From the NCBI GenBank assembly GCA_001275005.1, contig JWZX01002258.1, positions 1-36,244 of the forward strand: a stretch of 36,244 nucleotides of DNA, read 5' to 3'. A program made the position numbers and the translations under genes. The notes beneath the pieces were generated by a model. That model worked only from the letters and a program-made list of their open reading frames with translations, was not told the origin of the DNA and did not search any database. This stretch comes from Chrysochromulina tobinii. Lineage: Eukaryota. Below, one piece after another: positions 1 to 24,730 of the stretch (position 1 is its first letter; the number at the start of each line of letters is the position of its first letter).

Positions 1-3000
1 CGTACGCGAGCGCCTCGTCCGTGCCCACCGCCTGGCCGCCGAGGTCAAGGTGGCGCAGGTGCGCCGCGAGCGTGAGCACGCTCTGCACCAGGTCGGCATG
101 GCACCTCGGGGCCGAAGACGCTCCCATCCGAGCCGGGGCTCAGCCCGCTCAGCCGCAGCTCGGCAACCGGCGCCGCGCTCGCTCTCAGGCCCTCGAGGAT
201 CCGCGCCAGCGCCGCCGGCGGGCACAGTTGGTGTGTGAACAAGCACACAGGCGAGTGAACAGGCACAGGAGGCGTGTGAAAAGGCACGGTCGGCGGCGGC
301 ATTGACGTACTCGGCGCAATAAGCGCCGCTGTTGTGGGCGCTGTTTCACTGCCGGGCAACGGCGGCGGCGGTGGGGGAGCAAGCGGTGCAAGGCCCCCGG
401 GCAACGGCGGCGGTGCGAGCGGCGGCGGTGCGAACAGGGGCGGCGCGAGCGGCGGCGGTGCGAGCAGCGGCGGCGCCGGTTGCTTCTTCAGCTGCTCAAC
501 CTCCGCCTTCAGCTTCGTCAATGCGGCCTCCTTTGCGCTGATTTCACACTTAAGCGCGGCCACCTCTTCGGCGTTCACAGCGCCCGCCGCATCCTTCACA
601 GCCGCCTCGGCCGCCTCGGCTGCCGCCTTGGCCGCTGCCTTAGCCGCCTCCGCCGCCTTGCGCTCCGCGTCGTTCTGAGCGCTCAGCGCGGCGGCCACGG
701 CCACCTCTGCGCTGGCTGCAACGGCCCTCGCCGCCTCCAATGCCGACCTGAGCTCCGAAATCTCCGACCTGAGCTCCGATATCTCCGACGGGTCCTGTGC
801 AACAAACGAGGATCGCGCCGACAAGCATGCATCCGCCGTGGCGGGCGCTGGACTCATGTGCGGCGGCGAGGTCGTCGAGGTCGCCCGGGAGATCGTCGCG
901 AGATCGGACGGGGTGCGCGCGGGCGTCGCCGGCGCCGTCGTGGGCACCACGGCCGCCGGCGCGGTACCGGCGATCTCGGCGAGATCTGCGCGCATCTCGA
1001 CGATCTCGGCGAGATCTGCGCGCATCTCCTCGTCGTAGACGGCAATCTGGATCGCGATGATCGTCTCCACTTCGTCGCCGCCGATGACGTTCATCATCGG
1101 GCGCGTGAGCTCGATGAAGTCGAGATCAGCGAGCTCATTGCGCATGCGCACACGCGTCCCGATCTCAGGACAGCCCGACACGATCGCGTTGATCAGCGTG
1201 AGCCGATGCGCGTGCGACCTCGATCTGGGCTTCCGGAGCTCGTCGACGAGCAGCTTGAAGGGTTGCGCGGCGCTGGAGGAGGCGGCGGGTGCGGAGCAAT
1301 GGAAGTAGTAGAGCTCCTCGAGTGCGGTGAGGACGACACGGTGGCCTGCGGCCTCATAGAGCGCGACCGCCGAGAGGACATGCACCGCCATCTGCACGAG
1401 CTCCTCCTCCTCCGCGAGAAGCAACGACCCACCTGCGTAGGGGGAGCGCCGTGATGAGCACTTGCATGCTGGGCAGGCTCCTCCTCCGTGCGCATGCATA
1501 GGGAGAGCGCCGTGATGAGCACTTGCATGCTGGGCAGGCTCCTCCTCCGTGCGCACTCACGACCCACCTCCGCTAGCAAAGGCCTGGCACACGAGGGCGG
1601 GGGACGTGATGACCCCAGCGAGCCCCTTGTCGGTCCGAATGAGCGCCTTGAGGCATCTCATCGCGATCTCGATCCGCTGATTGTCCGAAGGCGAGCGCTC
1701 CGAGTAACGGCAAAGCCCAGCAAGCAAGGTGGACAGGGCGGCGGTGCCCGACGGCTGAGAGTTGACGAACTCGGCCACCTGCGAAGGGAAGGCGCCGTGC
1801 TGAGCACCCGCATGCTGGGCCAGGGCGAGGAGCCGATGGTGTGGGCGCCGAGGTGAGCACTCGCATGCTGGGTCAGGGCGGCGGAAGGCGCCGTGCTGAG
1901 CACTTGCATGCTGGACAGGGCGGCTCACCTGAGAGACGGGCGCGCCACGGAGCCATGCTTCAGTGCCGAGCAGCTCTTCCAAATCTGGATCGTTGAGCAG
2001 CACTGCCGCGTAATGCTCCGGGCCGGGCCCTTCACAGGCACTAAGTGTGAAGTCGTAACCTGCCATCAGAGGTCATCAGTGGTCATCAGAGGTCATCAGC
2101 AGCCATCAGGGGCCATCAGAGGTCATCAGAGGTCATCAATGGCCATCACATCAGAGGTCATCAGCGGCCATGGGTGACCGGCCATCGGAGTTCAGCGAGA
2201 ATCAGTGGTCATCAGTAGTCATCAGCGGCACCTTTGAGCATATCTCGCTTGATCTCCTGTCATCAGTGATCATCAGTGGTCATCAGTGGTCATCAGAAGT
2301 CATCAGCGGCACCTTTGAGCATATCTCGCTTGAGCTCCTTGCTGAGCTTGAAGATGGCCTCTGCTTTCACAGGAGGCAGGCCGAGCGCCGAGACCATCTG
2401 CTTCAGCGCCTCGTCCAGCTGCTCGTCGGGGATCGCGGGCGCCGCCGAGGCCGTCGTAGGCGCTGATGACTCGACCACCCGTGACGAAACCGCCGATGAC
2501 GAAACCGACTCGGTGCGCGCCAAGTCGCTCTCAGGCTTTTTCGCCATACCGAAGAAGCCGGCGGCACGGCCGAGCATACCCCCCCCCGAGGCCTTTGCGG
2601 CCGGCGCGGCGCCGCCCACCGTCTTGCTGCGCCCCAGAGCTTCAAGAGGAGCCTTGGGCGGCGCCACGCGGGCGCCTTCCTTTGCGACGGTCACCGAGGC
2701 GGAGCGCTGCATCGCGTCGCGCGTGGCAGCCTCGAGGTTCATCCCGATGTTGGCGAGCCACATCTGTCGGTCGTCGGCCGACTTGGCGCAGTAAATCATC
2801 TTCGCGTGAGTCGTCTCGATGATCAGGTACGATGGCGTGCCCGTTGGGGGCCGCACCCCCGCAAACTCATCGTACGACCTCGCGCTCAACACCTGCTTCA
2901 CGTCATCCTTGCTTCGCGGCGGCCCGCGCGCGTTTTGCGGCGAGTCATAGTAGACAAGGTCCGTGCCCCGGAGCACCGCGTACAGCTTGTTCCATTCCTT

Positions 3001-3090
3001 GTTGTTCTCCTTGAGCCTGAAGAGGTAGCCCTGGCACTGGTCGATGCCAATGGAGGCGCGCGACGACGTGCGGAGCAGCATCGATGCCAT
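1..3090 (-). CDS. Formin-like protein (PH - GBD/FH3 - coiled coil - FH1 polyproline - LRR-like), 3' end outside window. Exons 3090-2313, 2059-1929, 1778-1568, 1432-~105, then ~82-<1
   Basis: PH motif (GYLFRLKENNKEWNKLYAVLRGTDLVYY...SADDRQMWLANI), GBD-like DEALKQMVSALGLPPVKAEAIFKLSKELKRDML, armadillo/FH3-like RCLKAL..., LTLINAIVSG...RVRMRNEL...IQIAVYDEE, then coiled coil and (LAPPP)n. GT-AG introns at 2312-2060, 1928-1779 and 1567-1433 keep the frame. Confidence 0.8.
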
Positions 3091-3233
3091 GCCGTCGAAT
3101 GGGCGTCACCGGCTACGCAGCGGGTTGCCGCGACTCCTCGCGAAGCCACCGAGCGAGGCGACCCAGCCCCTTGGTGCGAGAGCAAGCTCATAGGAAAACT
3201 TGACAAAACTAAGTTCCGGCGCGCCCGGACATA

Positions 3234-3311
3234 GTTGCGGATTTCACATCCCACGTTAAATTGCCCTCTCGGCAAGACGCACACGTGAACGTGGGATGTG
3301 AAATCCGCAAC
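3234..3311. repeat. Perfect 24-bp inverted repeat with 30-nt spacer (hairpin/MITE-like)
   Basis: gttgcggatttcacatcccacgtt (3234-3257) is the exact reverse complement of aacgtgggatgtgaaatccgcaac (3288-3311). Confidence 0.9.
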
Positions 3312-3676
3312 ATCCCAGACATCCGCATAGCGCAACGGTCCGGACCCCCAAGCACGAGGGCCGCATCTCTGCGATATCTGCCTGTCTCTGCATGGACGAG
3401 CGTGGCCGGAGTTCGCTGGCGGCGGCTCGCTGCCGCGACGGCGCCCGAGATTGGATCAGATTCCCATAGCCTATTCCGACACTTGCCGCGCACGGACCGT
3501 CAAAATGTGTACTCTAGAAAACGTGCCCCAGCCGGCGCGCGACTGAGCGCTGTGTAGTTCGCGTACTGTTCACTCTTAATTCCGTGGAACCGAGTGCATA
3601 CCCGGATACCGCGTCATAACTGGAACCGAGAATGGCTCGATACTATTGCCGCGTAGACGCGCAGCCGCTTTGTGTG

Positions 3677-4714
3677 TCAATCATCACTCTCGTGGTGACC
3701 ACGCGGAGTCGCACTTGGTGGGCGCGGAACCGGGGGCCGACTGTCTGACCACAGCGGCGGCTCGATATTAAGGTGGGGCAACAGCGTCGGCCGCGGATTG
3801 AGCACGAGCCCCGACGTTTTCATGATCGTGCTCATCGCTCCGGTCGTTGAGAGCGCCTCGAGTCGCTGCGACCGTTGCGGAGCGCGGCCATCTGAAGCCG
3901 ACGGCGGCCTCATCAGTGGCAGCTCCAGCTCGGGTGCCCAGGGCGGCACCAGCACTTGCTCACGCGACGATCGGCGCGACGCTCCCGCTGAGCTGACGGA
4001 GACGGTGCTGCTGCCGGCGCTCGTGTGCGTCATTGAGGCTGAGCTCGAGCATAGACTGCCTTTGCCTAGTTGGGTCCAGGCACCCACGCCGCCCTGCCTG
4101 ATTTCGGTCCAGCGCGTGTTCGAAGGCGCGCCGCGCTGCGCCGGCGACAGCGGGAGCGTCGGCAACGAGCAGGAGCTGTGCAAGGTGCCGTTACTGCGAC
4201 TGCTCGTGTGACGGTTGCTGGCGTTCGCACGCTGCTTCTTTTGAAGCGGAGCATCTGATGCGGACCGCTTCGAATATGGCAGCGGCGCGCGTGGCTGCAA
4301 CACAGGCTCGTCGTCGAGAAAGACGTGGTGGTGCAGCGGTGCGAGGGCGTTGCGCTTTTCGTGATGCGGGCACGCGGAGGGTGGGTGCCGGCGTCGGTCC
4401 GAGGGCCGTGATAGGCGCGACGCTGGCTCGTGAAAGCCGAGGGCTGCGAGTCGCTCTCGCAGCGACCGTGCATCCATGCCCATTGATGCGGCAATCTGCT
4501 CTGGACGCCTTGTGTCCCGGCGGGCGTCTGCAGCGGCGAGCTCCTGCGATAGGAATGGTGCGAGAGTGCTCCAGTCGTCGAGGACTACCGTGAATGCGGC
4601 CTGAGTCGGTCGCGACGGCGAGATGATGGGCGAGAGGGGTTCCCCCAGCAACACCATGAGAGTGCAGACTCGAGACGAGGGTTCGAGTCCGGACGGTTGC
4701 TTGGACGCGCTCAT
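3677..4714 (-). CDS. Hypothetical Ser/Pro/Arg-rich, mostly disordered protein (345 aa)
   Basis: ATG-initiated uninterrupted ORF filling the gap between neighbouring genes. No recognisable domain. Confidence 0.45.
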   Translation of the reverse strand: MSASKQPSGLEPSSRVCTLMVLLGEPLSPIISPSRPTQAAFTVVLDDWSTLAPFLSQELAAADARRDTRRPEQIAASMGMDARSLRERLAALGFHEPASRLSRPSDRRRHPPSACPHHEKRNALAPLHHHVFLDDEPVLQPRAPLPYSKRSASDAPLQKKQRANASNRHTSSRSNGTLHSSCSLPTLPLSPAQRGAPSNTRWTEIRQGGVGAWTQLGKGSLCSSSASMTHTSAGSSTVSVSSAGASRRSSREQVLVPPWAPELELPLMRPPSASDGRAPQRSQRLEALSTTGAMSTIMKTSGLVLNPRPTLLPHLNIEPPLWSDSRPPVPRPPSATPRGHHESDD

Positions 4715-4949
4715 TCGGTTGCAAGTTCGCGGAGCGGGAATACACCGTCGGCGTCGCGGCGTGTGGTTCAGGAGAAAGTAGTTTACGTCTCGCGTTTACG
4801 TGTTCTCGGTTGCTCTGGTTTGAGTTTATCGAACCCAGCACGCATACGCACGGGTAGAGATTGCAGATTCCCAGTGACGCCGATCATGACGCCGATCCTC
4901 TAGAGTAAGAGTTTGTAAAACTCGACCTACAAGTACAACTGGACTCGCA

Positions 4950-7810: not shown

Positions 7811-9572
7811 ATGCGTGCGACGTCGGCCGAGGAGCAGGAGGAGGCGCCTACGGTGAAGAAGGCCAAACACGAGGAGCAAATACGCGTGCGAGCGCGAGAT
7901 GGAGAGGAGGCCACATTGTCGCGCGATGCAGCCCGACTCATGGGCACCTTGAAGGATCTGATGGATCTCGCCACCTCCGAGGATGGCATCTATCCCATGC
8001 CCACGATCATGGCCTCGACGTCTTCAGATGGTGTGCAAGCTGAACGACCCAGACTATACGTGGATGAGCTGGAAGAGCGATTCGCTCTTCCAGCTCATCC
8101 AGCTCATCGAGGACGCCCTCTATCTGGACGCCCCCATCGCGCTCAAGCACATCCAGCACGCGATCGCCTCCCGACTCAACGGAAAGCGCGCCCCCGAACT
8201 CTGCGCGCTGATCGGCGCGGGTGGTGACTTTGGCAGCGCGGAGGAGCACGCGTCGCACGCTGCAGCGGCGTCAAACGCCGAGCCGGCTTTTGTACCGGAA
8301 GATGTCGTTGAGGCGCCGCAGCAGCCGGCCAGCTCCACGTTACCGCCCGAGCCGCTGCAGCAGCCCTCGTTCTCGGCGGATGCCATGGAGGCTGCTCTGG
8401 GCCTGGTGGACGTGGCCACGTTGGCCGAGCTCAAGGGCGTGACTCGATTTTGGCGGGCGCTGGCGCAACGTGTCCTCTGCTCGCGCCTGTGCCGCCGCGA
8501 CGGGCAGCCAGTACCCACACGTCTGGATGAGATCACCGACCTTGACGTGGAGCAGCTCATCGAGGCCGGCCGGCACGGGGACGCGGCCGTAGCGGGGCGG
8601 ATGCTGCCTGGGCTTGCGCGCCTCCATGGCTACGGCTATGTGGTGGACGTGGCTGCTGTTCGGGCCGCGGATCTGCGAAACGGGGCTGGCAACACGCGCC
8701 CCCCGTCCTTGCTACATGGTACAGCTAGGGATGCTCTCAACAGCTGCATCTCAGGCGAAGGAGAGCCGCCATTGGAACTGACGATCGCAGCTGTTGCCTG
8801 TGCGGGCTCGAGAGTCATTTGCGGCATCCCGGTCCAGCTAATGCGCGAGGATGGCGTCACCAAGCTCAACATGTCCAATAGGGGGCTCCACGTGGCTGCG
8901 GCCATGCTCATCGCCTATCTCATCCCTGCTACATCGGTGCTCAAGAACTGCAACTTGCTCAAGAACAGGTTCGACGTTGAGTCGGCCACGATGCTCGCCA
9001 AGATTGGCGCGGAGAAGGGTATCATGATCTCGGGCATGACGCGCGACCAGACGGTGGCCAATTTCTTTAATCAGAACCTCCAACCCGCCGACGCCATCCT
9101 CATCGCATCTGACCTGATTTTCATGGCGGTGGTGACCGAGTTGCGCCTCGGTTCGAACCCCATCGGAAACAACGGTGCCAAGGCGATCGCAGAGGCGCTG
9201 AAGGTCAACACGGTCCTGACCCAGCTGTGGCTCAACGACAACAAGATCGGCGACAACGGTGCTAAGGCGATTGCGGAGGCGCTGAAGGTCAACACGGTGT
9301 TGACCAACCTCTACCTCGGGTACAACTCCATCGGGGTTGAGGGAGCTAAGGCTATTGCGGAGGCGCTGAAGGTCAACACGGTCTTGACCAAGCTAGTCCT
9401 CTACAGCAACCTCAGCATCGGGGATGAGGGCGCCAAGGCGATCGCGGAGGCGCTGATGGTCAACACGGTCCTGAACAACCTCGGCCTTTTGAACATTATT
9501 TTGGGAGATGCAGCAAAAACAGCGTTGCAAGATGCGGTGAAGGGCCGGAGAGGATTTCAGTTGTCTCTGTAG
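7811..9572 (+). CDS. Skp1-like + F-box-like + RNI-type LRR fusion protein with a +1 frameshift at ~8021 (pseudogene, allele or assembly error)
   Basis: Skp1 POZ-like IRVRARDGEEATLSRDAARLMGTLKDLM...YPMPTIMAST. After removing one base it continues LQMVCKL...LFQLIQLIEDALYLD...IASRLNGKRAPELCALIG...DF (Skp1 dimerisation helices). Then F-box-like ADAMEAALGLVDVATLAELKGVTRFWRALA and 28-aa LRRs (NxIGDxGAKAIAEALKVNTVLTxLxL). Confidence 0.75.
9130..9490 (+). repeat. ~84-bp coding tandem repeat (28-aa NLRC3/NOD3-type LRR units, ~4 copies)
   Basis: Repeated aaggcgat(c/t)gcggaggcgctgaaggtcaacacggt at ~84-nt period. Confidence 0.9.
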
Positions 9573-10292: not shown

Positions 10293-10718
10293 ACGTGCAC
10301 GTCAAGCCCCGACCTTGGCGACGTGCGTGTGCGTGGGTAGTTGATCGGTGTGCGCGCAACTTCGCCACATCGCGCGGCACCGGACACCAGTGACGACTGG
10401 GCGGTCTGGGATCATGGCGGATGCATCCTCATCATGGGCGGATGGCAGACCTCGGCACTTTTTGTTAGTTGTACAGTAGTAGGTATTGATTGACTACTCG
10501 TCGACGACTGTACAGCTATAGGGTGCAGGCAGGTGCGCCTGCACCACCTCCCGACTTCAAATTCCCCCACCGCACACACCGTGGGCGGTTCCTCCGTCTG
10601 AAGGGCCGCCTATTCGGATAAATCCCTCACGGATGGAGCTTGCAATGAGGTGGGTGCGCTATGCGAAACGTCTCAAAACGAGGCGGGGAGGGGCGCGGGG
10701 CCAGCGCTTGACGGTTTC

Positions 10719-13700
10719 TCACCCCGTCTTCCCGAGCCTCGCGATGATCTCGGCGCAAGTGGGTGCGACGTGCTCGAGCCACAACTTGTGAAGGCCATGG
10801 GCCACATTCTTTTGGCGGATCCTCTGGGACTCTGCGTCGATGTTGAGGTGCTCGACGCACTCACCAACCTTGAGGAGCTCGGGCGTCCTTTGCACGGTGC
10901 CCCACTCACGTACGAGCGTCGGCAGGCTCTCCCTGAGCTCATCCAGCTGCATCTGGCTCGTGTCATGGGGGTAGCTGATCGGAGCTTGGTGCGGCCACTC
11001 GACGAGCGCGTTGAGCGGCGAGCGTTCGCAATACCAGCGCTTGCACAGCTCGCCCAGGCCCTTCGCATCCAGCTCGCTTCGGAGCTTCGAGTTGCCAAAA
11101 GTGCTCTTCTGTCCCCAGGCGAGCTCGCGATCGGCCACGTTGCGCACCTCCGCCTTGAGCGCCGCGTGCGCGCGGTGTACATAGGCCGTGGTGAGTGCCT
11201 GGAGTAGCAGCTTCGCTCGCGATGCCTGCTCGGCGATGAGGAGGGACTTATGATGAGGGGCACAATCTCACATGCAATCAGAGGCAATCAGCACACCTGC
11301 TCGGCGATGAGGAGCTGCAATCAGAGGCAATCAGAGGCAATCAGAGGCAATCAGCACACCTGCTCGGCGATGAGGAGCTGCAATCACATGCAGTCACATG
11401 CAATCAGAGGCAATCAGCACACCTGCTCGGCGATGAGGAGCTGCAGCACCGAACGCGTCGAGCCCGGTGCCTTGACCTGCAGCTTGAACAGCGTGAAGAA
11501 GATGGTCGTGCGCAGCGCTTTGTTGTAGTGGCACTCGGGGCCGCTCAGGCCAGTGCATCTGAGCGCGGAGTGCGCGAGCACCGGCAGCACAGCCATGGTG
11601 GCCAGCTTCGCATCCTCCGAATCGAGCGCGTTCGGTGCGCGGCCGAGCGCCTTGAGGAGCTGTAAGACTGTGAACAGCGCCTTGTAAGCGACGGTCGCGC
11701 AGTTGCTCAGCTCCGAGAAGGCGCTGGGCAGGGTGGCCGGTAGTAGGCAGCGAGGCAGCAGCAAGTCCTTTACAATCAGCTCGCGCGCCATGTGCCGATG
11801 GGGTTTGATGAGCGCGAGGATCAGCGCGCTCTGCCCCGGATCCTGATGAGGCCTGAAGAGCGCGCTCATCCCCGGATCCTTCGCCTCGCCTTCGTTCGCA
11901 TGAGCGCCGGCACCGTGCACGCCTCTCGCGCCGCCCGCGCCGTGCACGCCACTCGTGCGAGCACCATCCTCGGGAAAGAGGAAGCCTTGACCGAGCTTGC
12001 GGACCGACGATCGGAAGTCGCTGTTGTGGTCGCGCGCGATGCGGCATAGCCCGCCCAGCACGCCGTCTAGTTCGGGGTGCACGCACGCCGAGTAGGGCGC
12101 CGACGCGGCGCCCTCGGCGAGCAGCAGGTCAATGAGGCAGCCGAGCATGACGCTCGAATTGGCACAAAGCACGAAGGGCAGTCGACTGAGCAGCAGCGCC
12201 GCCGCACGCACCGCAAACTCGGCGTACCGGCGCACGCCCTCCGAGCCGCCAGGCCCACCGCTGCGCACCTCGTCGAGCAGCCGAGGGAGCGTTTGCGCCA
12301 TCTTCTTGAGCGCTCGCTCCTGGCGCTGCAAGGCGCTCCTTGTGGGCGCATCTGCGGGGGGTGGGGCGGCGTAGGGCGCCTCGGACGCTCCACCCGTCCG
12401 CACTGCTCCCCCCGGCTGCACGGTGCTCGCCACGTGCTCGAGCGCTGTGGCGAGCAGTGCCACGCGCCCCGCCTCAAAGGGAGTCGCCTCGACTGACACG
12501 ACCGGCGCGCGCACGAGCGTCTGCAGCAGCGGCGAGGGCAGCGCGAGGGCCGCCGGATGCCGTCTCGCGAGCGCGCGCAGCTCCTGCGTGAGCATCGGCT
12601 GCAGCGTTGGGTGCACGCGCGGCTCGATGAAGGCGACCCACCTGTGGGGAGGGGAGGGGGCGCCGTGGTGAGCACATGCATGCACAGGACAGGGGGACTG
12701 ACGAACCCTCGATGAAGGCGACCCACCAGATCCTCTCCAGCTCCTCGAGCCGCGGCTGGACGAAGTCTTGCACGATCTTGCGCTCGAGCTGCTCGTCGGC
12801 GCCCTGGAGCGGGCGCAGAAAGTGGCGCGCAAACCACGCGGGCACGCACCGTCGTGCCTGGCGCTCAGCGAGGCTCGGTGCGCCCGGCTGCTGCTTGCGG
12901 TCGACCCCAGCCGTGTACTGGTGCTCGCCCGTCGCCGCGCTCCATGCACTCGCTGCATGGCGGAGCGCCGTGTCCTTGCGCACCGCATCGCCGCTGCTCG
13001 TCAAGGCACTCTCGAGCAGCAGCCGTTCGGAACGCCCCCAGCAGCGCACGAGAATGCTCAGCAGCATCGGAGCGCCGGCGGCGCCGTCCTGGGCGCCCAC
13101 TGAGCACGTGTGGAGGCGCGAGAGCCGATCCTGCAGAGCTGAGCCCCCCCCCGCGGCGTTGGGGGTGCGCCAGCACGGCTGCTGCAGCTGGCGAACCAGC
13201 GCGCTCGTCCACTCGCTACGCGCGGCCGCAAGGATGATGTCGCAGTCGTCGTCGTCGTCGTCCCCGCCGCCGTCGCCGCCGCCAACGCCGCCGCCACCGC
13301 TGCTGCCGCCGCCGCCGCTGCCGCCGCCGCCGCCGCCCAGCGCGGGTCTCGTGTCGCTGGCCGCTGGCACCGGCGTCGCGGCCGTTTCGAGCGCCGTCTC
13401 GAGCACCTGGAGCGCCGCGAGGCAGAGCTCCGGCAGCGCCGTGGTGAGCACTTGCATGCAAGGCAGGTCATCAGTGGCAATCAACGCACCTGGAGCGCCG
13501 CGAGGCAGAGCTCCGGCAGCGCCGTGGTGAGCACGTGCATGCAAGGCAGATCATCAGTGGCAATCAACGCACCTGGAGCGCCTCGAGGCAGAGCTCCGGC
13601 ATCCCGTGGCGCACGTGGTGCGCGAGCGTCGTACTGAGCACCTCGAGCAGCCCGCCGTCGACGGCGTAGTCGCGAAGGGGCACGGCGCTCAGTAGCACGC

Positions 13701-16700
13701 GGAGCAATGCGAAGCCACGCCGCGCGACCGCCGCGTCGTCCGCTGCCAGCGACGAGGCCGACGACGGCGACGGCGCGGTCGCGCTCACGACGGCGCCTGC
13801 GGCCTCGGCGTCGCGAGCTTTGGTGCAGACTGCGAGGGTGGCGTCGAGCGTCGCGACAAAGGGACGCACGCGTACGGCCGACGGGCGCCGCAGGGCCAGC
13901 TGCACGAGCACAGCACTCGCCTCGAGCAGCACGCAGCGCGCCGCGGCGCACGACGCCCCTAGATGTTCCCACACCTCGACGGGCGCCGTCCCGAGCGCCG
14001 TCCCGAGCGCCGTCCCGAGCGCCGTCCCGGGCGCATCGGCCCCGGCGCCTCGGAGCCGGTGTAACCGTCGGCTGGCCTCCTGGAGCGCCTTCGGGGCCAT
14101 GGCGTCGTCGTAGGGCAGGTGGGCACACACGAGGAGCAAAGCTGAGCGCGCCCATAGTAAGTCGACGGCCGCGCCCGCACCGGCGCCGCTCTCGCCAGCG
14201 CCGCCGGCGCCGCCAGCGCCGCCAGCGCCGCCAGCGCCGCCGGCACCGCCAGCGCATCTCTCGTCGCGTATGGCGCGCAGCCCGGCGACGCAGCACGCCT
14301 CATTGGCCCACGTGAGCAACTTGCTCTTGGCCTGGATGGCGACGCGATGGAAACGCACGAGGGCCTGCGCCATCACGCAGCGCAGCGCCGTTGTGAGCAC
14401 TTGCATGCAAGGCAGGTCATCAGTGGCCATCAGCGTACCTGCGCCATCACGAAGCGCAGCGCGAGCACGCGCATGCTCTCCCCCCCCGCGCACATGCATG
14501 CCTTGTAACCGCCACCGACCGACGGAGCGCCCGGCACGGCGCGGGGCGTGCCGTCGCGCCGTACCGGTACGGCCCACTCCTCGAGCGGCGGGAATCGGCA
14601 CTCTGCCAACGTCCGCGGCGCGCGCCGAGGCGCCGTCTCGAGCGCCTCGAGCTCCCACCGGTAGACGCCGAGCGCGCCGTCGAGGGCACCGCCCCAGACG
14701 CTCGAGAGCGAGCAGCAGAGGCAGAGCATCGCGCGGGCCGACGCCGCATCCGCAGCACCAGAGCGCGCGACCCTTGAGGTGAGCTCGAGTACCAACGGCC
14801 AGTTGGGGCGCAAGTAACCGCCGCCGCCGCCGCCGCCGCCGCCTCCTCCTCCTCCACCACCACCTCCGCCTCCGCCTCCTCCTCCGCCGCCGCCGCCTAT
14901 TGCAGCGCCGGCGCTGCTGTCGTGGGCGTCGATGTGAAGGGCGACGAGCTGGGGCACTGCGGCCCCAGCGCCGTCGAGGGCGTACAGCGGCAGCAGCGTG
15001 TGCAGGCACGCGACCCGCCACTCTATCAAGTTCAACTTCTCGAGGCCTTCGTGGGCGCTCCCGGCGGGCAGTGCGATGCCCACGGCCCGCATCTCGGAGT
15101 TGAGAAGCCCTGCAGCACGCCGATGAGGGGGACAATCAGAGGTCATCAACGGTAATCAGAGGCAATCAGAGGGCGCGATCCCCTCACCGCCTGCAGCACG
15201 CCGATGAGGGGGACAATCAGAGGTCATCAACGGTAATCAGAGGCAATCAGAGGGCGCGATCCCCTCACCCCAAAAGGCGCGCGCCGCCTCCGCTGCCGCC
15301 TGAGCCGCGGAGGCACTCTCCGAGTCCTTTGCCCACGGCGACTCGTCCTCCATCCAGCGGAGAGCCCCACGCTCGGCGGCGGTCGGCAGCGGAAGATCGT
15401 CGAGCACGCGTAGCAGCCGATGCCAAAGCGCGAGGAGTGGTCGGTCGATTGGCCGCGCGGGCGCCGAGTAAGGCTCACGGAGGGACGCGATCAGCTTGGG
15501 GGCACGCGCGTCGGCAGCGCCGTGCTGCGGCTGCTGCTGCTGCTGCTGCGGCGGCGGCGGCCGCAGTGCCGTGCCGGTAGCGTAGGGAATGTGGAGGAGC
15601 TCATCGCGCTGTGGCGGTGGCAGTGGCGCGAGGGCGTGCGCCTCACGCTGCATGCACACGAGCGGGAGCAGCTCACGCATCGTGGCACGCGCCTGGTGCA
15701 GGAGCATCCGGCGCAGATCGGCCGCGCTCGCGTCGGCGCTCTTCCTCGCCCCGGCCGCCTCGACCCCGGACGCCGCTAGGGCGCGCGCTGTCTCGAGCGC
15801 TGCGTCGCCGAGGGCACGCAGCCATTCGAGGCACAGCGCGCGGATGCGCACGTGCGTGCGCGCGGCATGCGCGAGGGCCGCCTTCGCGTCCGTCAGCGGC
15901 ACGTCGGCGGCGGCGGCGCTGCTACCGTCAGCGGGGTGTGCGTGTTTCGTCTCGTCGTTGAGCTGGCAGTTAGCCTCGCCCTCGGTGCCGGGAGCGAGGT
16001 GCTCCACCCACCACGGCATGGCACCATTCGGCGCGCTGTCGAGCACACGCATCGTCGTCGCCCCCTCCACCAGCACCCGTCCGAGGCGCTGCGCAAAGGC
16101 CGCCGCCTCGGCCGCCGCGTCGGCCGCCGCCTCGGTCGCCTCGGCTGGCACGCTGCTCGCACTCCACAGCGCGCGGCTCGCGCGCAGTGCGGCGTGCAGT
16201 TCGGGCGGAAAGGCGCCGCACCGCTCAGCCGCCTTGGCGCGCGTTGCGAGACCTCCGTGAGTGAGCGCCGTAGTGAGCACCGCCAGGGCGCAGCGCAGAC
16301 GCTCAAAGTGAAACGGCAGCTCGTCAGCGAGGCGAGGCCCTATGGGCAGAGCCCACCGCCCTGATGTCGTCGCACCTGCCGCTGCCGCCGCTGCCGCCGC
16401 TGCCGCCGCTGCCGCCGCCGCCGGGCGGTCAGATGCGGCCGCAAAGGCGGCTGCGAGTGGCTGCGCGGCGACCATGGGTGGCAGCGGCGAGGGGGCGGGC
16501 GCCAGGGCGTCCACCGTCGCGCCGTCGATGAGTGGCACGAGCGCAAAGCCCGCAGGTAGCGGCAGCGTCGGCAGCGGCATTGGGGCCAGGTTGAGGACGC
16601 ACACGGGCGGTGCACTCACGGCGCTGCTTGCGGCGGCAGCAGCTGGACGCTCTCGAGACGCCGCGCCGTGAATGTGAATGGGACGCTCTCGAGGCGCCGC

Positions 16701-19700
16701 GCCGGCGGCCGCCCTCTCACCGACATCTGACCCCACGTCCACCACTCGCTGCTCATCCGTCCGTTGGCTCGCGTCGCGACGGGCGTCCCCATTTGCCTGA
16801 GGCACTCGTGCCTTTCGCCGACCTGCTTGCGGCGAGGGCCTGTCGGCTGGCACATGGCGGCGCGCCGACGGCGACGCGCCGTCGTGCGAGGCGCCCAAGA
16901 CGGCGCTCACGTCCTCGCGCCGGCGCTGCAGCCTCTCGAGCATAGCATCGATGGTGGCCAACGGGCGCGCGCGCATGCTGCCGGCCGCCGCCCGGCCCAT
17001 GCGGCTCCGCGGGCGGATCTCAGCGGTGGAGCTATGCGAATGTACATTCGGTACGTTGGAGCCAGGAGGAGTCGCTCGGGGCGGCCGCGGCGGCGGAGGT
17101 AGCATCGAGCCGCCCCCCCCCACCTTGGGCCATCGTGCATCGAGACGCTGCTGCTGGAGCGAGGGCGGCACGAGCGGCGCCTTGCCATGGTTACGCATGC
17201 CGCCGGTGCCGCCGCCGCCGCCGCCGCTGCCACCGCTGCCGCTGCCACCGCTGCCGCTGCCACCGCCGGGCAGACAGGGCAGCTCGGCGAGAGGCTTTGC
17301 GTGCGGCGCCTTCCAATCGGTGGTGCATTGACTAGGCCAGCCCGCGCGCTGATGGCGCTCGTCCGCTGTATAAGCGGCTCGTCCGCTGTGAACGGCGCTC
17401 GTCCACTGTGAATGGCGCTCGTCGACTGCAGTGGCGGCGGCGGCGGCAGCCGGGTTCGTCGGGCCGTGACGTGTGCACGGGCACGTTCGGCTGCACACGA
17501 GGCAGCGCCATCGTCGCGCCGACTGACGGATGAAGGCGTCGAGCGCTTGCGCGCGCTCCCTCACTGGCATTGGGGCGCTCATTGGGGTGCCCGCGCCAGC
17601 GGCACACACATCGCCCTCGGCGTCGGCAGCACCGGCGGCGCCGTCGCTGACGCTGTCTGTCGCCCCTACGAGCACTCCCAGGCAATGCGTGCAGTAAGTG
17701 CGGCTGCAGCTCACACAGTGTACCCCGTCGCGCAGCCCGCCGAGCGCCGCCTCGAGGCGATCCTCATCATGCCCAAGCCCTTGACTGCCGGCCAGTCGCC
17801 CATGCCACGGGGGCAGCGTGACGCCATGGCACAGGTGGCAGAAGGGGCTGTGACGATGCGGGTAGGCTGGCAGCTCAGCAAACGCAAGGCCCTGCCGCAG
17901 TGCCGCGAAGCTCAGCCGCACGGGCGGGAGCGGACGCGGAGGCTCGACGACGGCACTACCGCTGCCGTGGACCTCGAGCTCGTCCGCACCACTGCCCTCA
18001 GCTTCGCCGCTATGGCTCTCGGCGGCCTCAAGGTCGACGGCCTCACGGCGACGCTTCTCGCCGCGTGCTGCCTCTCGCCCGTGCGCATGCCCCCGGTGCG
18101 AGTGAACCCCCCGATTCGAATTCAGCGGCGTGCTGCGCTGCTGAACACGTCGCTCGACCCATCGCTGGAAGCTCACCGGATGCCGCCGCCGCGCGTCGAG
18201 CCGATGCTCTGCTGGAGCCGCCTTGCCTGCGCGAGCCAACAGCGCGGGCCGCACCGGCCGCACTGGCCGCACCGCGCCGTCCGCGTCCGCTGCTGCTCCT
18301 GCTGCCGCTGCCGCCGCTGCCGCCGCACGAGCCTGCTGATGCCGCTGGCGCGCTCGTGCACGCTCGTCGATCTCCTCTGCGGTCAGAGCGGCGAGCTGTG
18401 CCATCCTCGCACGCTCCCACGGCAGGCACGGCTGCTGCTCAGCGGGCGCGAGGCGAAAGCGGAAGCGTCCATCCTCGAGTGCCTCGACAGTGTAGAGCCC
18501 ATCGTACCGGTAGCCGCCGTGCGGCGCGAAGCTCGATCGCAGCTTGTGGTGGCGCACCACGCGCACGGCGCGACCCCTGGCTGCTGAGAGCGAGAGCCAA
18601 TGCTCGGCGTGCTCGGCCGCGTGCTCGGCCGCCGTCGCTGGCGTCCCATGCGCGTAGGTGAACGTGTCGCCGCTGTCGTCGACGTGATCTCCGGGCCAGT
18701 GCGTGAGCAGCAGGGAGTGGGCACCGTGCGCGTCCGTGCCCGAGACGCCGTGCTTTTTCCCCACATGCACGCCCGCCTCGTGAAGCCCCTCGAGCGTCCG
18801 GAAGATGACGCCGCTCGGTACGGCGCGCAACCCGCCAACGGCCCGCGCATGCCTCGGGCAGCGTGGCACCTCGAGAGGCGCCACCGCCGGGTCGGGCCGC
18901 GCCCGCTTGGCCGGCCCCAGAGCGGCGGCGCCGCCGTTGCTGCCGCCGCCACCGCCGCTGCTGCTGCCGGTGCCACCGCCTGGTGCGCCCTTGCGTTTTC
19001 GCGCCAGCGCGGCAGGGAAAAAGTCGTCGTCGCTTCCCTGCAAGTCGTCATCGACAGACGCCTCGCCTGCCAGATCGTCCTCAGCCTCGTCCTCGTCCAT
19101 GTCCTCCACATCCTCGCTCCCACTCGAGCTGTCCCCGTCGCGCATCCGATAGGCACGCGGCACGCCGCGGCCGCCACTCCCGCCGCCGCCGCTCCCGCCG
19201 CCGCCTTCGTGACGCCGAGCGCCGCGCTGACCTTTGTCTACGCCCGCGAGCTCCCGCAGCGCATCGAGCGAGTGTCCCTTGTACTGGAGCGCGGCCCAGC
19301 CGTTGCCTTTCTCGAAGCCCGGAAGCTTCTGCCGCCCGATGGCCGTCTGCAGTGCGAGGAGGCGCAGCAGACCCGACGGCCAGAAGCGCTCGCCAGCGTG
19401 GCCGGGGCCGCCCGCGGGCAGGCTGATGAAGCCTCGAGCATCAAGGTTGGCCGCCGGTGGCAGGAACACGCCATTCCACACGACGCGAAGCACGCCTATT
19501 CCCGCGCGAACACGCAGACCCGGATCGAGATGACGCGACTTGCGCATCAGCTCGTGCAACGGCCCGTGCTCGCCGAGATCGCGCTCATCCGCCTCGTCGT
19601 AGGCCTCTCGTGCAGCGCCCGGAGGGGCCTCGGCGTCGTGCTCATCGTCGGTGTCCTCGGGCTCGTCATCGCTGTCGTCCGGCACGTCGTCCTCGTCCTC

Positions 19701-20074
19701 GTCCTCTTCAATCTGTATGACGCGCTTGGCCGGCCGCCGTGCGGCAGGTGGCGACTTGGAAGGTAGAAGCGCTCGAGCAGTCGCCGATGGTCCTGAGGAA
19801 CTCTGCGAGGTACCCTCAGCCGAAGATGGACGTAGTGCGAGGAGCTTGCCGATGACTGCGGGCGCAATGGCAACGGATATGCGTCAACGGGCAGAAACGG
19901 CAGGGCGCGCCAGCTTTCGCGGCACGTACAGGCTCGGAATTGCTGTGGATCACGTAAAGGGTCCTCAGAGCGCTGGCTTGCTTGGCGGCGCGGGCGGACG
20001 ATCTCGTCGCCCGCCCCATCCTCCTCCTCGTCCGCATCACCGCGGGCAAAGATAGCTGTGGTGAGATGTGGCAT
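10719..20074 (-). CDS. MMS22L-like protein with N-terminal RAMA, SRA/YDG and zf-4CXXC_R1-like domains (~2866 aa). Exons 20074-19930, 19855-15269, 15109-14439, 14364-13573, 13406-12727, 12641-11423, 11225-10719
   Basis: Seven exons joined by GT-AG introns give 8601 nt in one frame, with phases checked. RAMA-like at 19559-19251; SRA at ~18840-18420 (GVH...GVSG...GAHSLLL...DDSGDTFTY...AVRVVR...YRYDGLYTV); Cys cluster at ~17845-17465. MMS22L-like motifs: LLALWHRLLRVLD, AFWGLLN, LHTLLPLYALDGAG, PNWPLVLEL, AMLCLCCSLSSVW. Confidence 0.75.
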
Positions 20075-20509
20075 GAACCGCGCCGCGTCTCTGACGAGTA
20101 TTTGCGCGCGACGCCGCAAAAGAAAAAACTTCCAAGGTGTGTGTGAATAGGGGCTCGGGGAATACGGAGATGCCGCCCGCGGCCCGAGTGACTCACCGAG
20201 GCTCGCAGCGGCGGCCCGGCGCCCGACCCATGACCACAGCCGTGCGCGCTTCACGCGGGCGCCGAGGTTGCGCATCCCGTCTCCGGTTGATATTAGTGAT
20301 GTCCACCGCCCCCTGTCGCGCCGGCGCGTGGAACGCAGCAGCGGTAAGCCCCGCATGATTCGTGGCCTGCTGGCTAACCTGTTCGGCTCGCTGGGAAAAC
20401 GCTCAGAATGACGCCAATCTTAGGGGTCACAGCCTACGCAGTTCACAATTGGGTCTGAGTAAGGTCTGAGGCACGTATACTAATGACAGTTCAATACTGC
20501 GTCGCGAAG

Positions 20510-23243
20510 TCAATGGAAGCCTCTCCAATTGTGCGTGTCGTCATCGTCATAGATGCGCCGTGCGAGCGGCGGCGCCGCGCTCCACACTTCGCGCAATCTC
20601 GCCACGCTCGCGTCGTTCATCGCCCAGAAGCACGGCGGCTGCCGCGAGCCGCCATTCCACTCGCCCCGCTCGGCCGAGCAGAGGGAGGCCACACCTTGTG
20701 CCTTGGGGATCGCCCAAAAGTGACGGCGCCAGCCGCCGACCAGGTGGCGATCGAGCACCTGCGCAATCGGTGGCAATCCGAGGTCACCCGAGGTCACCCG
20801 AGGTCATCCGAGGTCATCCGAGGTCATCCGAGGTCATCCGAGGTGGCGCTCGCGAGCACCGGCTGGCCGCCGTTGGCCGTCGACAGGTCAAATAGGACGA
20901 CGCCCGCGGCACGGCCGGCGCTGCAGTTGGCCGCCGCGTGCGGGCAGCAGTAGTCAGGGCTCGGGCAACAGAGCGTGTTCGAGGTCGGGTCGAGGATGAA
21001 GTCCGACGGCCGCTGGCACACTCCCGCCTCGACGACCCAATTGCCACGTGGCAGAAAGTCGTAGAGCGGGTTGAGGTAGGAGTCGGAGCCGCAGGGGTTC
21101 GAGCTGAACGCCCCCTCCACCAGGTAGCCAAGCATAGGCAGCGCGGTGCGGTTCGTTTGCCACTCGCGCGCCTGAGTTAGGGATAGGTCCCTCGGGTTAG
21201 GCTTCGGGTTGGGGTTAGGGGTTCGGTTAAGCATAGGTAGCGCGGTGCGGATCGTGGGCGCCACTCGCCTTGGTATCCACCATGAGCGCGTCAGGCAGTT
21301 GCAATCAGTGGCGATCAGTGGTCTTCAGTAGCAATCACCTTGGTATCCACCCTGAGCGCTTCAGGCAGGCTCCAGTCCATCTTGTGCAGCCAGTGGTTGC
21401 GCGGGAAAGCTCGCAAGAGCCTCATCTTAGACGGGTCGAGGGCCGCGATGGCGCCGCGCAGCCGCGTGCGCCGCTCATCATCCGGCGCGGCGCTCGGCAC
21501 GGCGCTCGGCATGGCGCCCAATACGGCGCCGGGATCGTCGAGATGCAGGCGCATCGCGGCGACGAGCGCGGCTGAATCCGAGCTCTTCCAATCTCGTTGC
21601 AGCTCGTACCTGAGGTGAGAGGCAATCAAGAAGTCATCAGAGGTCATCTGAGAGGTAATCAGATACGTCATCAGAGGCCATCATTATTCATCAGAGCTCA
21701 TCAGTGGCAATCAGAGATGTCATCGGAGGCCATCATGCGTCATCAGAGCTCTTCAGTAGCAATCAGAAATGTCATCAGATGTCATCAGAGCTCATAGGAG
21801 GCGATCAGCTCGTACCGGAGCGCCCCTAGGAAGCAGTCAGTAAAGGCCATGTCGAATGCATGCAGTGTGTCGGCCACACGGCTTTCCTGGCGCCAGCCGC
21901 CCCCCTTGAATGCATGCGCCACCCTCTCCCGCCCGCCGATCATCCACTTCGTCAATTTCGTCCACTCGGCGAGCTGCTTCTCGCTCGCCTTCTCGCTCGC
22001 GGCGGGCGGCGGACTCCATACCATCCGCCAGCCGTGACCGCGCTCGTGCCTGATGAGGGGCGTCATCGTGTGTCGTGTGCAGGCCTTCAGAGGCAATCTT
22101 AAAGGCCAACTTAGGCCATATGCCCTGAGTGACAATCGGAGGTCATAAGTGGCCATCAGGGGTCATCAGAGGTCATTAGATGTCATCAGAGGCCATCAGA
22201 GGCCATCAGAGGCCATCAGAGGTCATCAGAGGCCTTCAGAGGCCTTCAGAGGCCATCAGAGGTCATCAGAGGCCATCAGAGGCCATCAGAGGCCATCAGA
22301 GGCCATCAGAGGCCATCAGAGGTCATCAGAGGTCATCAGAGGCCATCAGTGGACAAGTTTTGTACCAGAGGAAGCGGATGCCGTGCAGCGCTCGCAGCCT
22401 CCCACCCGAGTGTACCTGAGGAGGAGAGAGGGGGAGGCCATCAGAGGTCATCAGAGCCCTCAGAAGCAATCATAAGCAATAAGAGGCCATCCGAAGCTAT
22501 GCGAGGCAAATTAGCGTACATCGCCCAATATCGGCCCAAAGCTCGTCTTGAAGCGCATGTCGTACCGAGTGATCAAGACTGTCTTGTACGCGGCTCCGCT
22601 CAGGCGGCAGTGCTCCTGGAGCGCCCGGATGGCAGCGAGCGTGCTCAGGATCTGCTCGCTCGCGCTTGCATCGAGCGTCGTAATGAGCTCCAGGTGCTCG
22701 CCGAACGGCCGTCGCAGATCCTCGAGCGCACTCGGCCGGCGCACGTCCGCGTCGTACACAGTGAGGAAGACCTGGGCGAGGGCACGACTCATACCCCAGG
22801 CTGGTTACTGGCTGGTTCCGGTGGGTGTGTAGCGCAGGAGAGGAAGAGATCAGGAGGAGAAGGAGCCTCCTCACGAGCAGCAGAGCGAAGCTGAGTTCGA
22901 GAAGCAGACCACGCACCCCTACACGATCGCCAAGCTCCGCAAACGGACGTACGATCATGCGTTGGACCGAGAGTGCGCACTCGATCTGGGCCGCGCGGTT
23001 GACTTCTGGTGTTTCTGACCCACGGAAGGCGCCACCGCGTAGCAGGACTGCGAGGCCGCCGCCGCGAGCATGGCCGGCAGCCTTGCGACGGTAGATGCAT
23101 CGTGCGTTTAGACGATCGAGAGCGGCCTCAATGAGCCAGGTGGCGTTGGGCATGCGGATTTGGAGCTTGGTCGCATACCAGTCCTCGCACAAGGAAGCGT
23201 GGCGCCGCGCCGAACCCGGTGGCAAACCGACCGGCAAGCCCAT
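20510..23243 (-). CDS. Uncharacterised 564-aa protein with glycosyltransferase-like N-terminal region and Cys-rich C-terminal region. Exons 23243-22917, 22771-22520, 22415-22366, 22049-21816, 21609-21339, 21171-20860, 20758-20510
   Basis: Exons join in phase to 1695 nt. Motifs LAVLLRGGAFR...VFLTVY...YKTVLITRYDMRF...IRFLWHE...DTLHAF resemble uncharacterised GT-A-like families. C-terminal CCPSPDYCCP. Confidence 0.7.
22150..22348. repeat. Intronic decamer satellite (GG[CT]CATCAGA)n, roughly 20 copies
   Basis: Direct reading of the sequence inside intron 22050-22365. Related decamers occur in introns at 2060-2312, 11226-11422, 15110-15268, 20759-20859, 21610-21815, 22416-22519 and 24155-24244. 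Confidence 0.95.
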
Positions 23244-23425
23244 CCCTCAGCCCGTGAGCGACGCGCAAATTTCTCGCAGCATGCAAGGCCTTGCTCTTCG
23301 GGGCCGACGAGTTCGACTAATAAGGGTCATACTTGTGGAGGGAGAGAGCTCCGTCGCAAGCGCTCTTCATTCGCTGGGTTGACCGAGGGATCATGGAAAG
23401 TTCACGACAGAATCTTAATAAAGGC

Positions 23426-24730
23426 ATGCGCACCAGCAGCACACTTCTTTCTTGTGTGGCGACGGCGGCCTTGTGCATCGCAGGCGCCTCGCCCCGGTTG
23501 CATCCCACGGCTGCTTGCGTGCGCTGCCATGCTGCACCGGTGTGCATGGCAAAGGGCGATGGGAAAAAGTCACGTCCGCCAAAGGCACCAGCGCCGCCGC
23601 CTGGGCCGCCAATGGCACCACCAGAGGTGGCACCGCGCTCGGGCAGGATCACGCAGGGCGGTGCCGTATCTGGAAGTGGCAATGTGCTGAGCGTGCGGCA
23701 GCAAATTGCCATCGTCCGCTCCTTCAAAAAGATGGCGGCGGCTGGTCCGGCGTCGCCAGCCAAGCGCACCTCGTTCCGCAAGATTGCCAAAGAGGGAGGC
23801 GATCGCAATACCACGAAAGCCGTGGACGAAGACGTTGAGGTCGATTTGCGCGACCCCTTGCTATTTATCGATGGGTACAACGTGATCAACATGTGGCCGC
23901 GGCTGAAGAAGCGCTTTCAGAAGGGCGAGCTCCTCGAGGCTCGTGAGATGCTCCTCGCCGACGTGGCCGACTTTACGATCAGCCGCTTCGAATCTGTGGT
24001 GGTCTTCGATGCCAACGGGGCGGCCGACCGCGTCGAAGGCAAGGATCGCGAGGAGACGTACGCGAGCGGCCTCGTGCGCGTGGTCTACGCCCACGACAGC
24101 GCCGACGCGTACATTGAGCGTGAGACGAAGGCACAACGCGCCGAGGGTCGACCGGTGCGCGCGCGTGGCCACGAGCGAGGTTGACTGATGACCTCTGATG
24201 ACCTCTGATGACCTCTGCGTGCCCTTGATTGCTTCCCTCATCAGGTGCGCGTGGCCACAAGCGACAACGGCATCGCGACAGCGTGCGCGATGTATGGCGC
24301 GTCGGTCGTGTCCTCCCAGTTCATGGTGACGGAGCTCAAGGCGAGCCGCAACGCCGCCGCCGCCATCATCGACGAGTTCAACCGTCGTCAGGTTCGCGCC
24401 GCGGGGCTCTCACGACCGCTCTGGGACGCGTTGCCTTCCGACTTACAAGAGCAGTGGGACGCGTCGATACAGGCCGACGTCGACAAGCGGCTCACCAAGG
24501 CGCAGATCGCGGCCAAGGCTGCGCACGAGGAGCTGCTCAAGAGCGGTGCGCTCGACCGTGGCGCCGCTGCCCGGCGCAAGCAGCTCGAGCGACAGCGGTT
24601 GCGGCGCCGGCCAGGTGCGGAAGAAGCAGGCACAGGAGCAACCGAAGGCGATGCGGCGCGCGGGACGATGGACGATGAAAAGCCTAGCTCGCTATTCGAT
24701 GTGCTTGAGGATGGGCTTTTTGACGCGTGA
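23426..24730 (+). CDS. NYN_YacP (Rae1/DUF901-like) ribonuclease, probably plastid-targeted. Exons 23426-24154, 24245-24730
   Basis: LFIDGYNVIN...AREMLL...VVVFDA...SADAYIER...VRVATSD...GASVVSS catalytic NYN motifs. N-terminal signal peptide plus transit-like peptide. 90-nt GT-AG intron in phase 0. Confidence 0.88.

What the first reader, a model, noticed from the sequence alone, without database searches (positions are those of the whole stretch)
1433..24244. Introns flanked by long duplications of adjacent exon sequence, suggesting an intron-generating mechanism
Seen in sequence, at least eight introns in four genes have direct repeats at their borders. In some, the intron 3' end copies the end of the upstream exon: 11226-11422 (~19 nt), 13407-13572 (~30 nt), 14365-14438 (~25 nt), 21269-21338 (~31 nt). 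In others, the intron 5' end copies the start of the downstream exon: 1433-1567 (11 nt), 12642-12726 (20 nt), 20759-20859, 21610-21815 (11 nt), 24155-24244. Each duplication spans the junction, so one splice dinucleotide lies in the duplicated sequence. The interior is a short shared repeat. This resembles target-site-duplication co-option by Introners, but the repeats are long and variable and there are no TIRs. That points to templated duplication/DSB repair or a retro-type mechanism. Ordinary introns here (RPB4, 19856-19929, 28584-28680) lack the pattern.
Basis: partly seen in the sequence, partly recalled or inferred. Interest (0 to 1): 0.82.

Follow-up and report, generated by a model that had tools for sequence, protein, structure and literature searches.

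The report
Newborn introns carrying copied exon ends
In a freshwater alga, many introns are short repeat arrays that carry a 9-40-base copy of the neighbouring exon at one end, at least one is cleanly absent from a near-identical wild relative, and they were likely made recently by a DNA-copying slip that borrows part of an existing intron, a route to new introns that current transposon surveys did not detect in this genome.

Summary
The window is Chrysochromulina tobinii. Of 14 repeat-filled introns in four genes, 8 have a junction-anchored exon copy beyond chance and a ninth has two internally; 0 of 3 plain introns do. Correction: 21269-21338 is half of a compound intron, 21172-21338. The introns look recently gained. 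A wild relative with about 1% exon divergence lacks 20759-20859 exactly. Called ORFs indicate empty sites at 1779, 11226 and 24155, and a sister lineage has its own such intron elsewhere in the same gene. There are no TIRs, no fixed TSD length and no shared pair of ends; cores are mosaics of three to four branch-site repeats. Best model (0.5): template switching at a G|G site copies part of another intron and re-copies 9-40 exon bases; selection keeps spliceable products. Main rival (0.3): a non-LTR or Replitron-like element with variable TSDs. Splicing support is indirect, and no genome-wide survey was possible. A 2025 Introner survey lists 0 families for this genome. The scan noted the same footprint earlier on another piece of this genome (e1-2577349). 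New variant of a known kind.

The parts
1433..1567 (-). 5'-type intron in gene 1 (PH + FH3, formin-like); 9+11-nt copy of downstream exon; two 61-nt units with the GCATGCAAGTGCTCA motif
1779..1928 (-). Repeat intron, short borders (CAG|GTG), three motif units; absent from one called ORF that reads into both neighbouring introns
   Evidence: P0112
2060..2312 (-). Decamer intron with an internal tandem duplication of exon end plus intron start
11226..11422 (-). 3'-type intron in gene 2 (2866 aa, SRA domain); three units, each ending in a copy of the exon end; site empty in an 84%-identical lineage
   Evidence: RNA contig ends
12642..12726 (-). 5'-type intron, 19-nt exact copy of downstream exon
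   Evidence: X15 contig stops fitting at 12708
13407..13572 (-). 3'-type intron, two 83-nt units, 29-nt exon copy with the internal AG changed
14365..14438 (-). 3'-type intron, 24-nt exon copy; core matches 13407 at 49 of 51 nt; 7-nt overlap between donor-like core and exon
15110..15268 (-). Decamer intron, two units in the window, one 78-nt unit in L002
20759..20859 (-). Youngest 5'-type intron (gene 3); exactly absent in L002 and in 13 of 15 listed cluster members
21172..21338 (-). Compound intron: 3'-type unit 21269-21338 plus 5'-type unit 21172-21268 with (CCCTAA)n-like core; both at one AAG|GCG site
   Evidence: X13 contig starts at 21173
21610..21815 (-). 5'-type decamer intron, 10-nt exact copy
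22050..22365 (-). Decamer array intron, 316 nt here and 156 nt in L002; no long border copy
22416..22519 (-). Decamer intron, 4-nt border copy
24155..24244 (+). 5'-type intron in the NYN_YacP gene; site empty in a sister lineage 98% identical over exon 1
19856..19929 (-). Plain control intron, no repeat, no border copy
25272..25372 (+). Plain control intron in RPB4 (boundaries inferred from the reading frame)
28584..28680 (-). Plain control intron in a DnaJ zinc-finger gene

Best explanation
These are recently gained, likely spliced introns, each likely made when DNA synthesis through an exon switched at a G|G site onto an existing repeat-filled intron, copied one end of it, and returned to the exon 9-40 bases out of register, leaving an exon copy on one side of the insert. 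Shown: the anatomy, exact empty sites in relatives, kinship of the cores to other introns. Inferred: gain rather than loss (outgroups and sister lineages empty). Inferred, untested: the template switch itself, and whether the template is chromosomal DNA or cDNA. If the insert brings the donor's 5' end and branch site, the re-copied exon end supplies AG (3' type); if it brings branch site and AG, the re-copied exon start supplies GT or GC (5' type). Splicing then removes the core plus one copy and restores the ancestral mRNA, so selection keeps these products. The direct repeats afterwards allow unit amplification and would allow exact loss.
For: Exact empty site at 20759 in L002, about 1% exon divergence; empty on both haplotype backgrounds. 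Reciprocal lineage-specific introns in the NYN gene. One border is always a true splice junction with 0-4 nt overlap; G|G at 13 of 14 repeat introns against 0 of 3 plain, exonic GG frequency 0.093. Copy length varies 9-40 nt, no TIR, no common pair of ends. Cores are partial and mosaic; 13407 and 14365, neighbours in one gene, match at 49 of 51 nt; best hit in the same gene for 9 of 15 units, permutation p 0.013. Overlap at the inner copy/core border sums to 20 nt over 10 units against 10.4 expected, p 0.013. The exon beside 14365 is one of only 2 non-intronic matches to the core motif in the window. 3 of 4 mismatches in the 3'-type unit-end copies remove a competing AG, about p 0.002 post hoc. 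An orthologue (P0123) carries a stop-free antisense-decamer insert with a 13-residue exon duplication, which suggests the process is strand-blind and splicing is the filter (protein only).
Against: The overlap signal rests largely on one unit (7 of 20 nt); 5 of 10 units show 1 nt and 2 show none or were matched to poor donors, and the borders were set by eye. Overall target-to-core similarity is not significant, p 0.075. Long arrays attract best hits, so the same-gene test is soft. All 66 decamer hits lie in introns, in sense, none in the other 33.8 kb; a strand-blind DNA process should leave some intergenic copies. No exact donor was found for any insert, as no genome was held. Five of 14 repeat introns have no long border copy. 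Splicing of the youngest intron is not shown: the RNA joint at 20759 (X13, X18) can come from the empty allele, and the NCBI model stops inside it (P0038).
Confidence: 0.5

Rival explanations
1. A non-autonomous mobile element, or excised intron RNA, is inserted by an enzyme that makes variable target-site duplications (non-LTR target-primed reverse transcription, or a Replitron-like HUH transposase). The two intron types are the subsets in which the duplication ends in AG or begins with GT.
For: Both types have the geometry copy-core-copy. Replitron-1 inserts at RG with variable TSDs and fuzzy ends, and one Replitron locus is reported in C. tobinii (PMC10288648, passages). The retained ends are the natural ends of an excised intron. 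Marine Chrysochromulina MAGs have TIR-less Introners.
Against: At least three unrelated cores share the footprint, and they are truncated at opposite ends in the two types. No copy outside introns in the window. No tail or hairpin end; self-antisense scores equal those of plain introns. Craig found TSDs only in the Chlamydomonas element. The 2025 survey lists 0 Introner families for this assembly.
Confidence: 0.3
2. Plain tandem duplication of exon sequence across a proto-splice site made the intron (Rogers model); the repeats came later by slippage and conversion among introns.
For: Tandem duplications across borders are common here: 2060, 11226, 13407, 15110. Splice sites come from G|G sites.
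Against: The youngest intron (20759) already has about 80 nt of family-like repeat and only 19 nt of exon copy while same-haplotype alleles are empty. Copies are one-sided; the short side is never over 4 nt.
Confidence: 0.1
3. The introns are older; exon copies are scars of incomplete conversion by spliced cDNA, and empty alleles are losses.
For: It explains copies that stop exactly at the junction, and 21172-21338 holds a copy of the spliced junction in its middle. Direct repeats favour exact deletion.
Against: Orthologues at 40-67% identity are continuous at the sites examined, several on 8-297-kb contigs; sister lineages hold different intron positions in one gene. Many parallel losses would be needed.
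Confidence: 0.07
4. The repeats are assembly artefacts or the inserts are not spliced.
For: No raw reads were seen; splicing evidence is from contigs only; 20759 is unspliced in the NCBI model.
Against: L003 is identical across 10513-26041 and L002 shares five repeat introns; retaining any one of six introns truncates the 2866-aa gene; homologues align across the modelled junctions.
Confidence: 0.03

Closest known systems
Introners of marine Chrysochromulina MAGs and other haptophytes (Gozashti 2022, 10.1101/2022.06.06.494994 / PMC9860276; Gozashti 2025, PMC12130899)
   Same: New introns related to each other; one splice site carried, the other co-opted from a duplication; no TIR in the Chrysochromulina example. 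E. huxleyi fam24 (5 copies) is annotated '10bp terminal direct repeats', co-opt 5' carry 3'.
   Different: The Chrysochromulina example has a 4-bp TSD; here 9-40 nt, variable, with both polarities from the same cores, and similarity does not reach both ends. C. tobinii GCA_001275005.1 is listed with 0 families.
Introner-like elements of Symbiodinium and Polarella glacialis (Roy et al., 10.1101/2020.10.14.339549)
   Same: Splice sites recruited from a TSD in several frames; proto-splice-site bias.
   Different: TSD fixed per class at 3-8 nt; inverted repeats in the Symbiodinium elements.
Daphnia pulex neointrons from staggered break repair (Li et al. 2014, PMC4202315)
   Same: [quoted passage not shown]
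   Different: Repeats 4-12 bp (33 cases), filler AT-rich and mostly of unknown source; here longer copies and filler drawn from shared intron repeat families.
Tandem genomic duplication and RT template-switching models (reviewed in Yenerall and Zhou 2012, PMC3443670)
   Same: Duplicated AG/GT context supplies splice sites; template switching is named as a route that mimics intron transposition.
   Different: Here the intron is mostly foreign core, and only one site comes from the long copy.
Dinoflagellate identical repeated intron boundaries (Mendez et al. 2015, PMC5032977)
   Same: Exon end repeated at the intron 3' end, cut between conserved GG.
   Different: 2-11 bp, no mechanism or polymorphism given in the passages read.
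Replitron-1 of Chlamydomonas (Craig 2023, PMC10288648)
   Same: RG target, variable-length TSD, imprecise end.
   Different: 0.9-3.6-kb elements with terminal direct repeats and a hairpin; not reported to form introns in the passages read.

Membership tests
Introner (sequence-family definition of Gozashti 2022) | Multiple introns with similar sequence | tested here: met
   also L004, L006
Introner (sequence-family definition of Gozashti 2022) | Similarity extends to near both splice boundaries and is not microsatellite-driven | tested here: not met
   One end is replaced by exon copy; much similarity is decamer repeat; definition
Introner (sequence-family definition of Gozashti 2022) | Insertion at new positions (empty orthologous site) | tested here: met
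   DNA: 20759 in L002; protein level: 1779, 11226, 24155
MITE / TIR DNA-transposon Introner | Terminal inverted repeats | tested here: not met
   2-8 of 14 terminal bases pair, plain introns 3-6; self-antisense scores 5-12 against 8-10
MITE / TIR DNA-transposon Introner | Fixed short TSD | tested here: not met
   Long side 1-40 nt
Non-LTR retroposed element (SINE-like) | Variable TSD | tested here: met
Non-LTR retroposed element (SINE-like) | Common 3' end or tail with 5' truncation | tested here: inconclusive
   5'-type units end in pyrimidines plus CAG; 3'-type units lack that end
Non-LTR retroposed element (SINE-like) | Partner autonomous element; copies outside exons in both orientations | tested here: inconclusive
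   0 of 66 decamer hits outside introns in the window; one antisense case in an orthologue; no genome held
Replitron | Rep HUH transposase or alignable termini with direct repeats and hairpin | not testable with these tools
   No genome held; no such termini seen in the 15 units
Rogers tandem-duplication intron | Intron consists of duplicated exon, both sites from the duplicated AG/GT | tested here: not met
   Exon copy is a minority of each unit; short side 0-4 nt
U2 spliceosomal intron | GT/GC...AG ends, branch motif, removal restores the ORF | tested here: met
U2 spliceosomal intron | Excision seen in RNA of the same strain | tested here: inconclusive
   Contig ends fit 11226, 12642, 15110, 19856, 21172; the one listed joint (20759) may be the empty allele

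The most novel reading that the evidence does not exclude
C. tobinii and kin gain introns at genome scale without a transposon: any repeat-filled intron serves as a template, branch-site-bearing microsatellites (decamers, telomere-like repeats) are the propagating seed, and each birth leaves a long one-sided exon copy. Introns would beget introns by copy choice, fast enough to segregate in lake populations.
Probability: 0.35. Interest if true: 0.85.

Novelty: new variant of a known kind. Interest (0 to 1): 0.7.

Why it matters
The source of new introns is a long-standing question, and the current leading answer is transposons. Here gains are recent enough to have empty alleles, each keeps a readable footprint, and the host is cultured and has abundant lake metagenomes, so donor, target and breakpoints can be read for many events. 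The class escapes end-to-end family searches (0 families listed for this assembly), so such gains may be undercounted in haptophytes. It also misleads annotation: the NCBI model ends inside the youngest intron.

Tried and rejected
No whole genome was held, so no genome-wide survey. Motif scans for more family members gave little: viral collection 1, 0, 2, 0 loci (L005 is a chance match, L001/L006 one contig end), GTDB 0 and 1; a protein scan of viral contigs found none. A second read-laying with the mixed-culture RNA runs was not obtained, so splicing of 13407, 14365, 20759 and 21610 in this strain stays open. My first idea that the imperfect copy at 20759 shows error-prone synthesis is weakened: two cluster members (P0036, P0039) encode E at that codon, as the intron copy does, leaving only a 2-nt slip; the 4-nt slip at 24155 is missing from the common allele (P0093, 35 contigs), so it is later. 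General target-to-core homology: not significant. A first one-sided overlap null was too lenient and was replaced. The automatic non-coding estimate (2451 nt) is unreliable at this GC content and was not used. The RNA joint at 20759 was first taken as proof of splicing and then rejected as such. Notes e1-9761426 and e1-7134672 concern GT-AT introns elsewhere and were not used.
Full report
Source. The window is eukaryotic, 64.6% GC. A homologue cluster of one exon holds KOO30251.1 of Chrysochromulina tobinii CCMP291 on a 36,244-nt contig, and a C. parva model. No whole genome was held, so all counts are for this window.

Observation. I modelled 17 introns. Removing three gives an 835-aa PH/FH3 gene; six give a 2866-aa SRA-domain gene, and retaining any one of the six truncates it; five give a 462-aa gene; one splits an NYN_YacP domain whose halves join without a gap in 7 of 7 aligned homologues. 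Fourteen of the 17 are filled with repeats. Eight of the 14 have a junction-anchored exon copy scoring 10 or more, against 0 of 3 plain introns and a maximum of 7-8 in 272 mismatched pairs. The NCBI model splices it the same way. Five repeat introns have 4 nt or less at their borders.

Anatomy. The long copy is on one side only; the other side matches for 0-4 nt. Thirteen of 14 repeat introns sit in G|G, 0 of 3 plain ones do. Cores are built from a decamer (CTGATKRCCW), a GCATGCAAGTGCTCAC motif, or (CCCTAA)n-like repeats, sometimes mixed; most are rich in branch-site-like YTVAY words in sense and poor in antisense, though 1433, 1779 and 20759 are not. All 66 decamer-pair hits are in introns and in sense; 9 of 11 motif hits are intronic, and one of the two others is the exon beside 14365. 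There are no TIRs. In 3'-type units the family's pyrimidine tail is replaced by the exon copy a few bases after the branch motif; in 5'-type units the copy replaces or precedes the family's start. Whole units amplify: 11226 three times, 13407 twice, 15110 twice here and once in L002.

Age and polarity. L002 differs from the window by 52 substitutions in 4.9 kb of gene 2, shares 15110, 19856, 21172, 21610, 22050 and 22416, and lacks 20759-20859 exactly. Of 15 listed members of a 30-member cluster, 13 called ORFs run through that junction, one is the window's own model and one a spliced C. parva model; five of the 13 (35 contigs) begin inside the upstream intron and so come from unspliced sequence, and both haplotype backgrounds are empty. 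The cluster was found with a length filter that favours continuous ORFs, so these are not allele frequencies. P0112 equals the window ORF 1557-2066 minus the 50 codons of 1779-1928 while reading into both flanking introns (one contig). At 24155, four listed proteins of a sister lineage (22 contigs, up to 46 kb; 98% identical over exon 1) are continuous, and instead break about 50 codons later, where they read three exon-like residues and then decamer-type peptide; the window and the outgroups shown are continuous there (15 of 76 members listed). At 11226, 24 of 24 listed near-identical proteins stop in the intron, while 12 of 15 members of an 84%-identical cluster, on contigs up to 23 kb, are continuous; two do not cover the site and one starts in the intron. 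More distant homologues are continuous: 24 of 25 at the NYN site (one does not cover it), some on 8-297-kb contigs; P0010 across all five gene-3 sites, with a 5-residue gap at the first; P0123 at 13407, 12642 and 11226 (DNA or RNA origin unknown). Apart from L002 this is protein-level inference. Gain is the simpler reading.

Splicing. Four RNA runs were laid on 10600-21950, contigs only. One listed joint matches an intron (20759, runs X13 and X18), but it can be the empty allele. Contigs that stop fitting at 11243/11422, 12708, 15268, 19855 and 21173 with unplaced remainders are what spliced RNA would give for 11226, 12642, 15110, 19856 and 21172; I did not see the unplaced letters, and 38 joints were not displayed. 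Nothing was seen for 13407, 14365 or 21610. 1433 and 24155 lay outside the stretch.

Mechanism. Any insertion with a duplication is removed cleanly if the splice sites fall in register in the two copies. The data add that one end of the insert is an authentic intron end and the other is an arbitrary point in a donor-like core. That is what a two-step template switch gives: leave the exon at G|G for the junction of an existing intron, copy part of it, return out of register. Support is moderate: inner-border overlap 20 nt against 10.4 (p 0.013, mostly one unit), neighbours as closest relatives (p 0.013), loss of competing AGs in 3 of 4 mismatches (post hoc), and one antisense, read-through case in an orthologue. 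Against: no general target homology (p 0.075), no intergenic copies, no donor pinned down. An enzyme-driven insertion with variable TSDs remains the main rival. Apparent copying errors are partly explained by segregating variants and later slips.

Literature. Seen: Gozashti 2022 (parts 1-2 of 5, passages, supplement rows from a file cut when stored); Gozashti 2025 (passages, supplement rows; files 13-14 not searched); Roy 2020 preprint (parts 1-2 of 4; supplements closed); passages of Craig 2023, Li 2014, Yenerall and Zhou 2012, Mendez 2015, Hovde 2015, PMC3622300 and PMC11282704. Ten searches listed no paper that describes this intron class in C. tobinii; most hits were seen as listings only, subscription papers are not held, and the family-level rows for marine Chrysochromulina MAGs were not read, so a longer-TSD family there cannot be excluded. 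Reported border repeats in what I read are 2-12 nt. The scan noted a 15-nt case on another piece of this genome (e1-2577349); it led me to the Roy preprint, and I did not check its counts.

Verdict. Real, recent and polymorphic intron gain with an unusually long, one-sided, variable exon copy. It works like TSD-co-opting Introners and Daphnia repair introns but fails the end-to-end family, TIR and fixed-TSD tests. New variant of a known kind; interest 0.7.

Noticed in passing
window 25856-27765: About 1.9-kb non-coding element with 43-nt imperfect terminal inverted repeats (77%) and inverted subterminal arrays of a GGAATCTGGAATTT-like unit; looks like a non-autonomous DNA transposon.
   Followed up: partly
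window 21172-21268: Intron core made of degenerate (CCCTAA)n, the complement of the haptophyte telomere repeat (PMC3622300, passages), which contains a CTAAC branch motif; telomerase or telomeric DNA may seed some cores.
   Followed up: partly
window 11226-11422, 13407-13572, 21172-21338: Units abut as AG|GT or AG|GC with no exon between them, so they could be excised stepwise like recursive splice sites.
   Followed up: no
P0123 residues 420-491: Orthologue of gene 2 with an in-frame insert that reads as antisense decamers and a 13-residue exon stretch repeated twice plus a partial third time.
   Followed up: partly
P0118 (C. parva model of gene 1), at window 2060-2312: The model reads DMLKDMLK, as if part of the internal exon copy were kept as a mini-exon.
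   Followed up: no
P0008, at window 21172-21268: In this allele the intron copy and the exon both read RTKR where the window exon reads QTNR: conversion between copy and exon, or misassembly (one contig).
   Followed up: no
window 7811-9570: Skp1-like plus leucine-rich-repeat gene (family judged by eye) with a frame break near 8090; sequencing error, small intron or pseudogene.
   Followed up: partly
L004 977-1097 and 1330-1440; L006 4360-4554: Haptophyte-type repeat introns with nearby 23-30-nt duplications sit in a bacterial MAG contig and at the end of a viral contig, probably contamination or chimeric assembly.
   Followed up: partly
window 743-789, 971-1028, 32648-32723, 34915-35020: Tandem duplications of 21-60 nt inside coding sequence, showing that local duplication is frequent here without making introns.
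   Followed up: no
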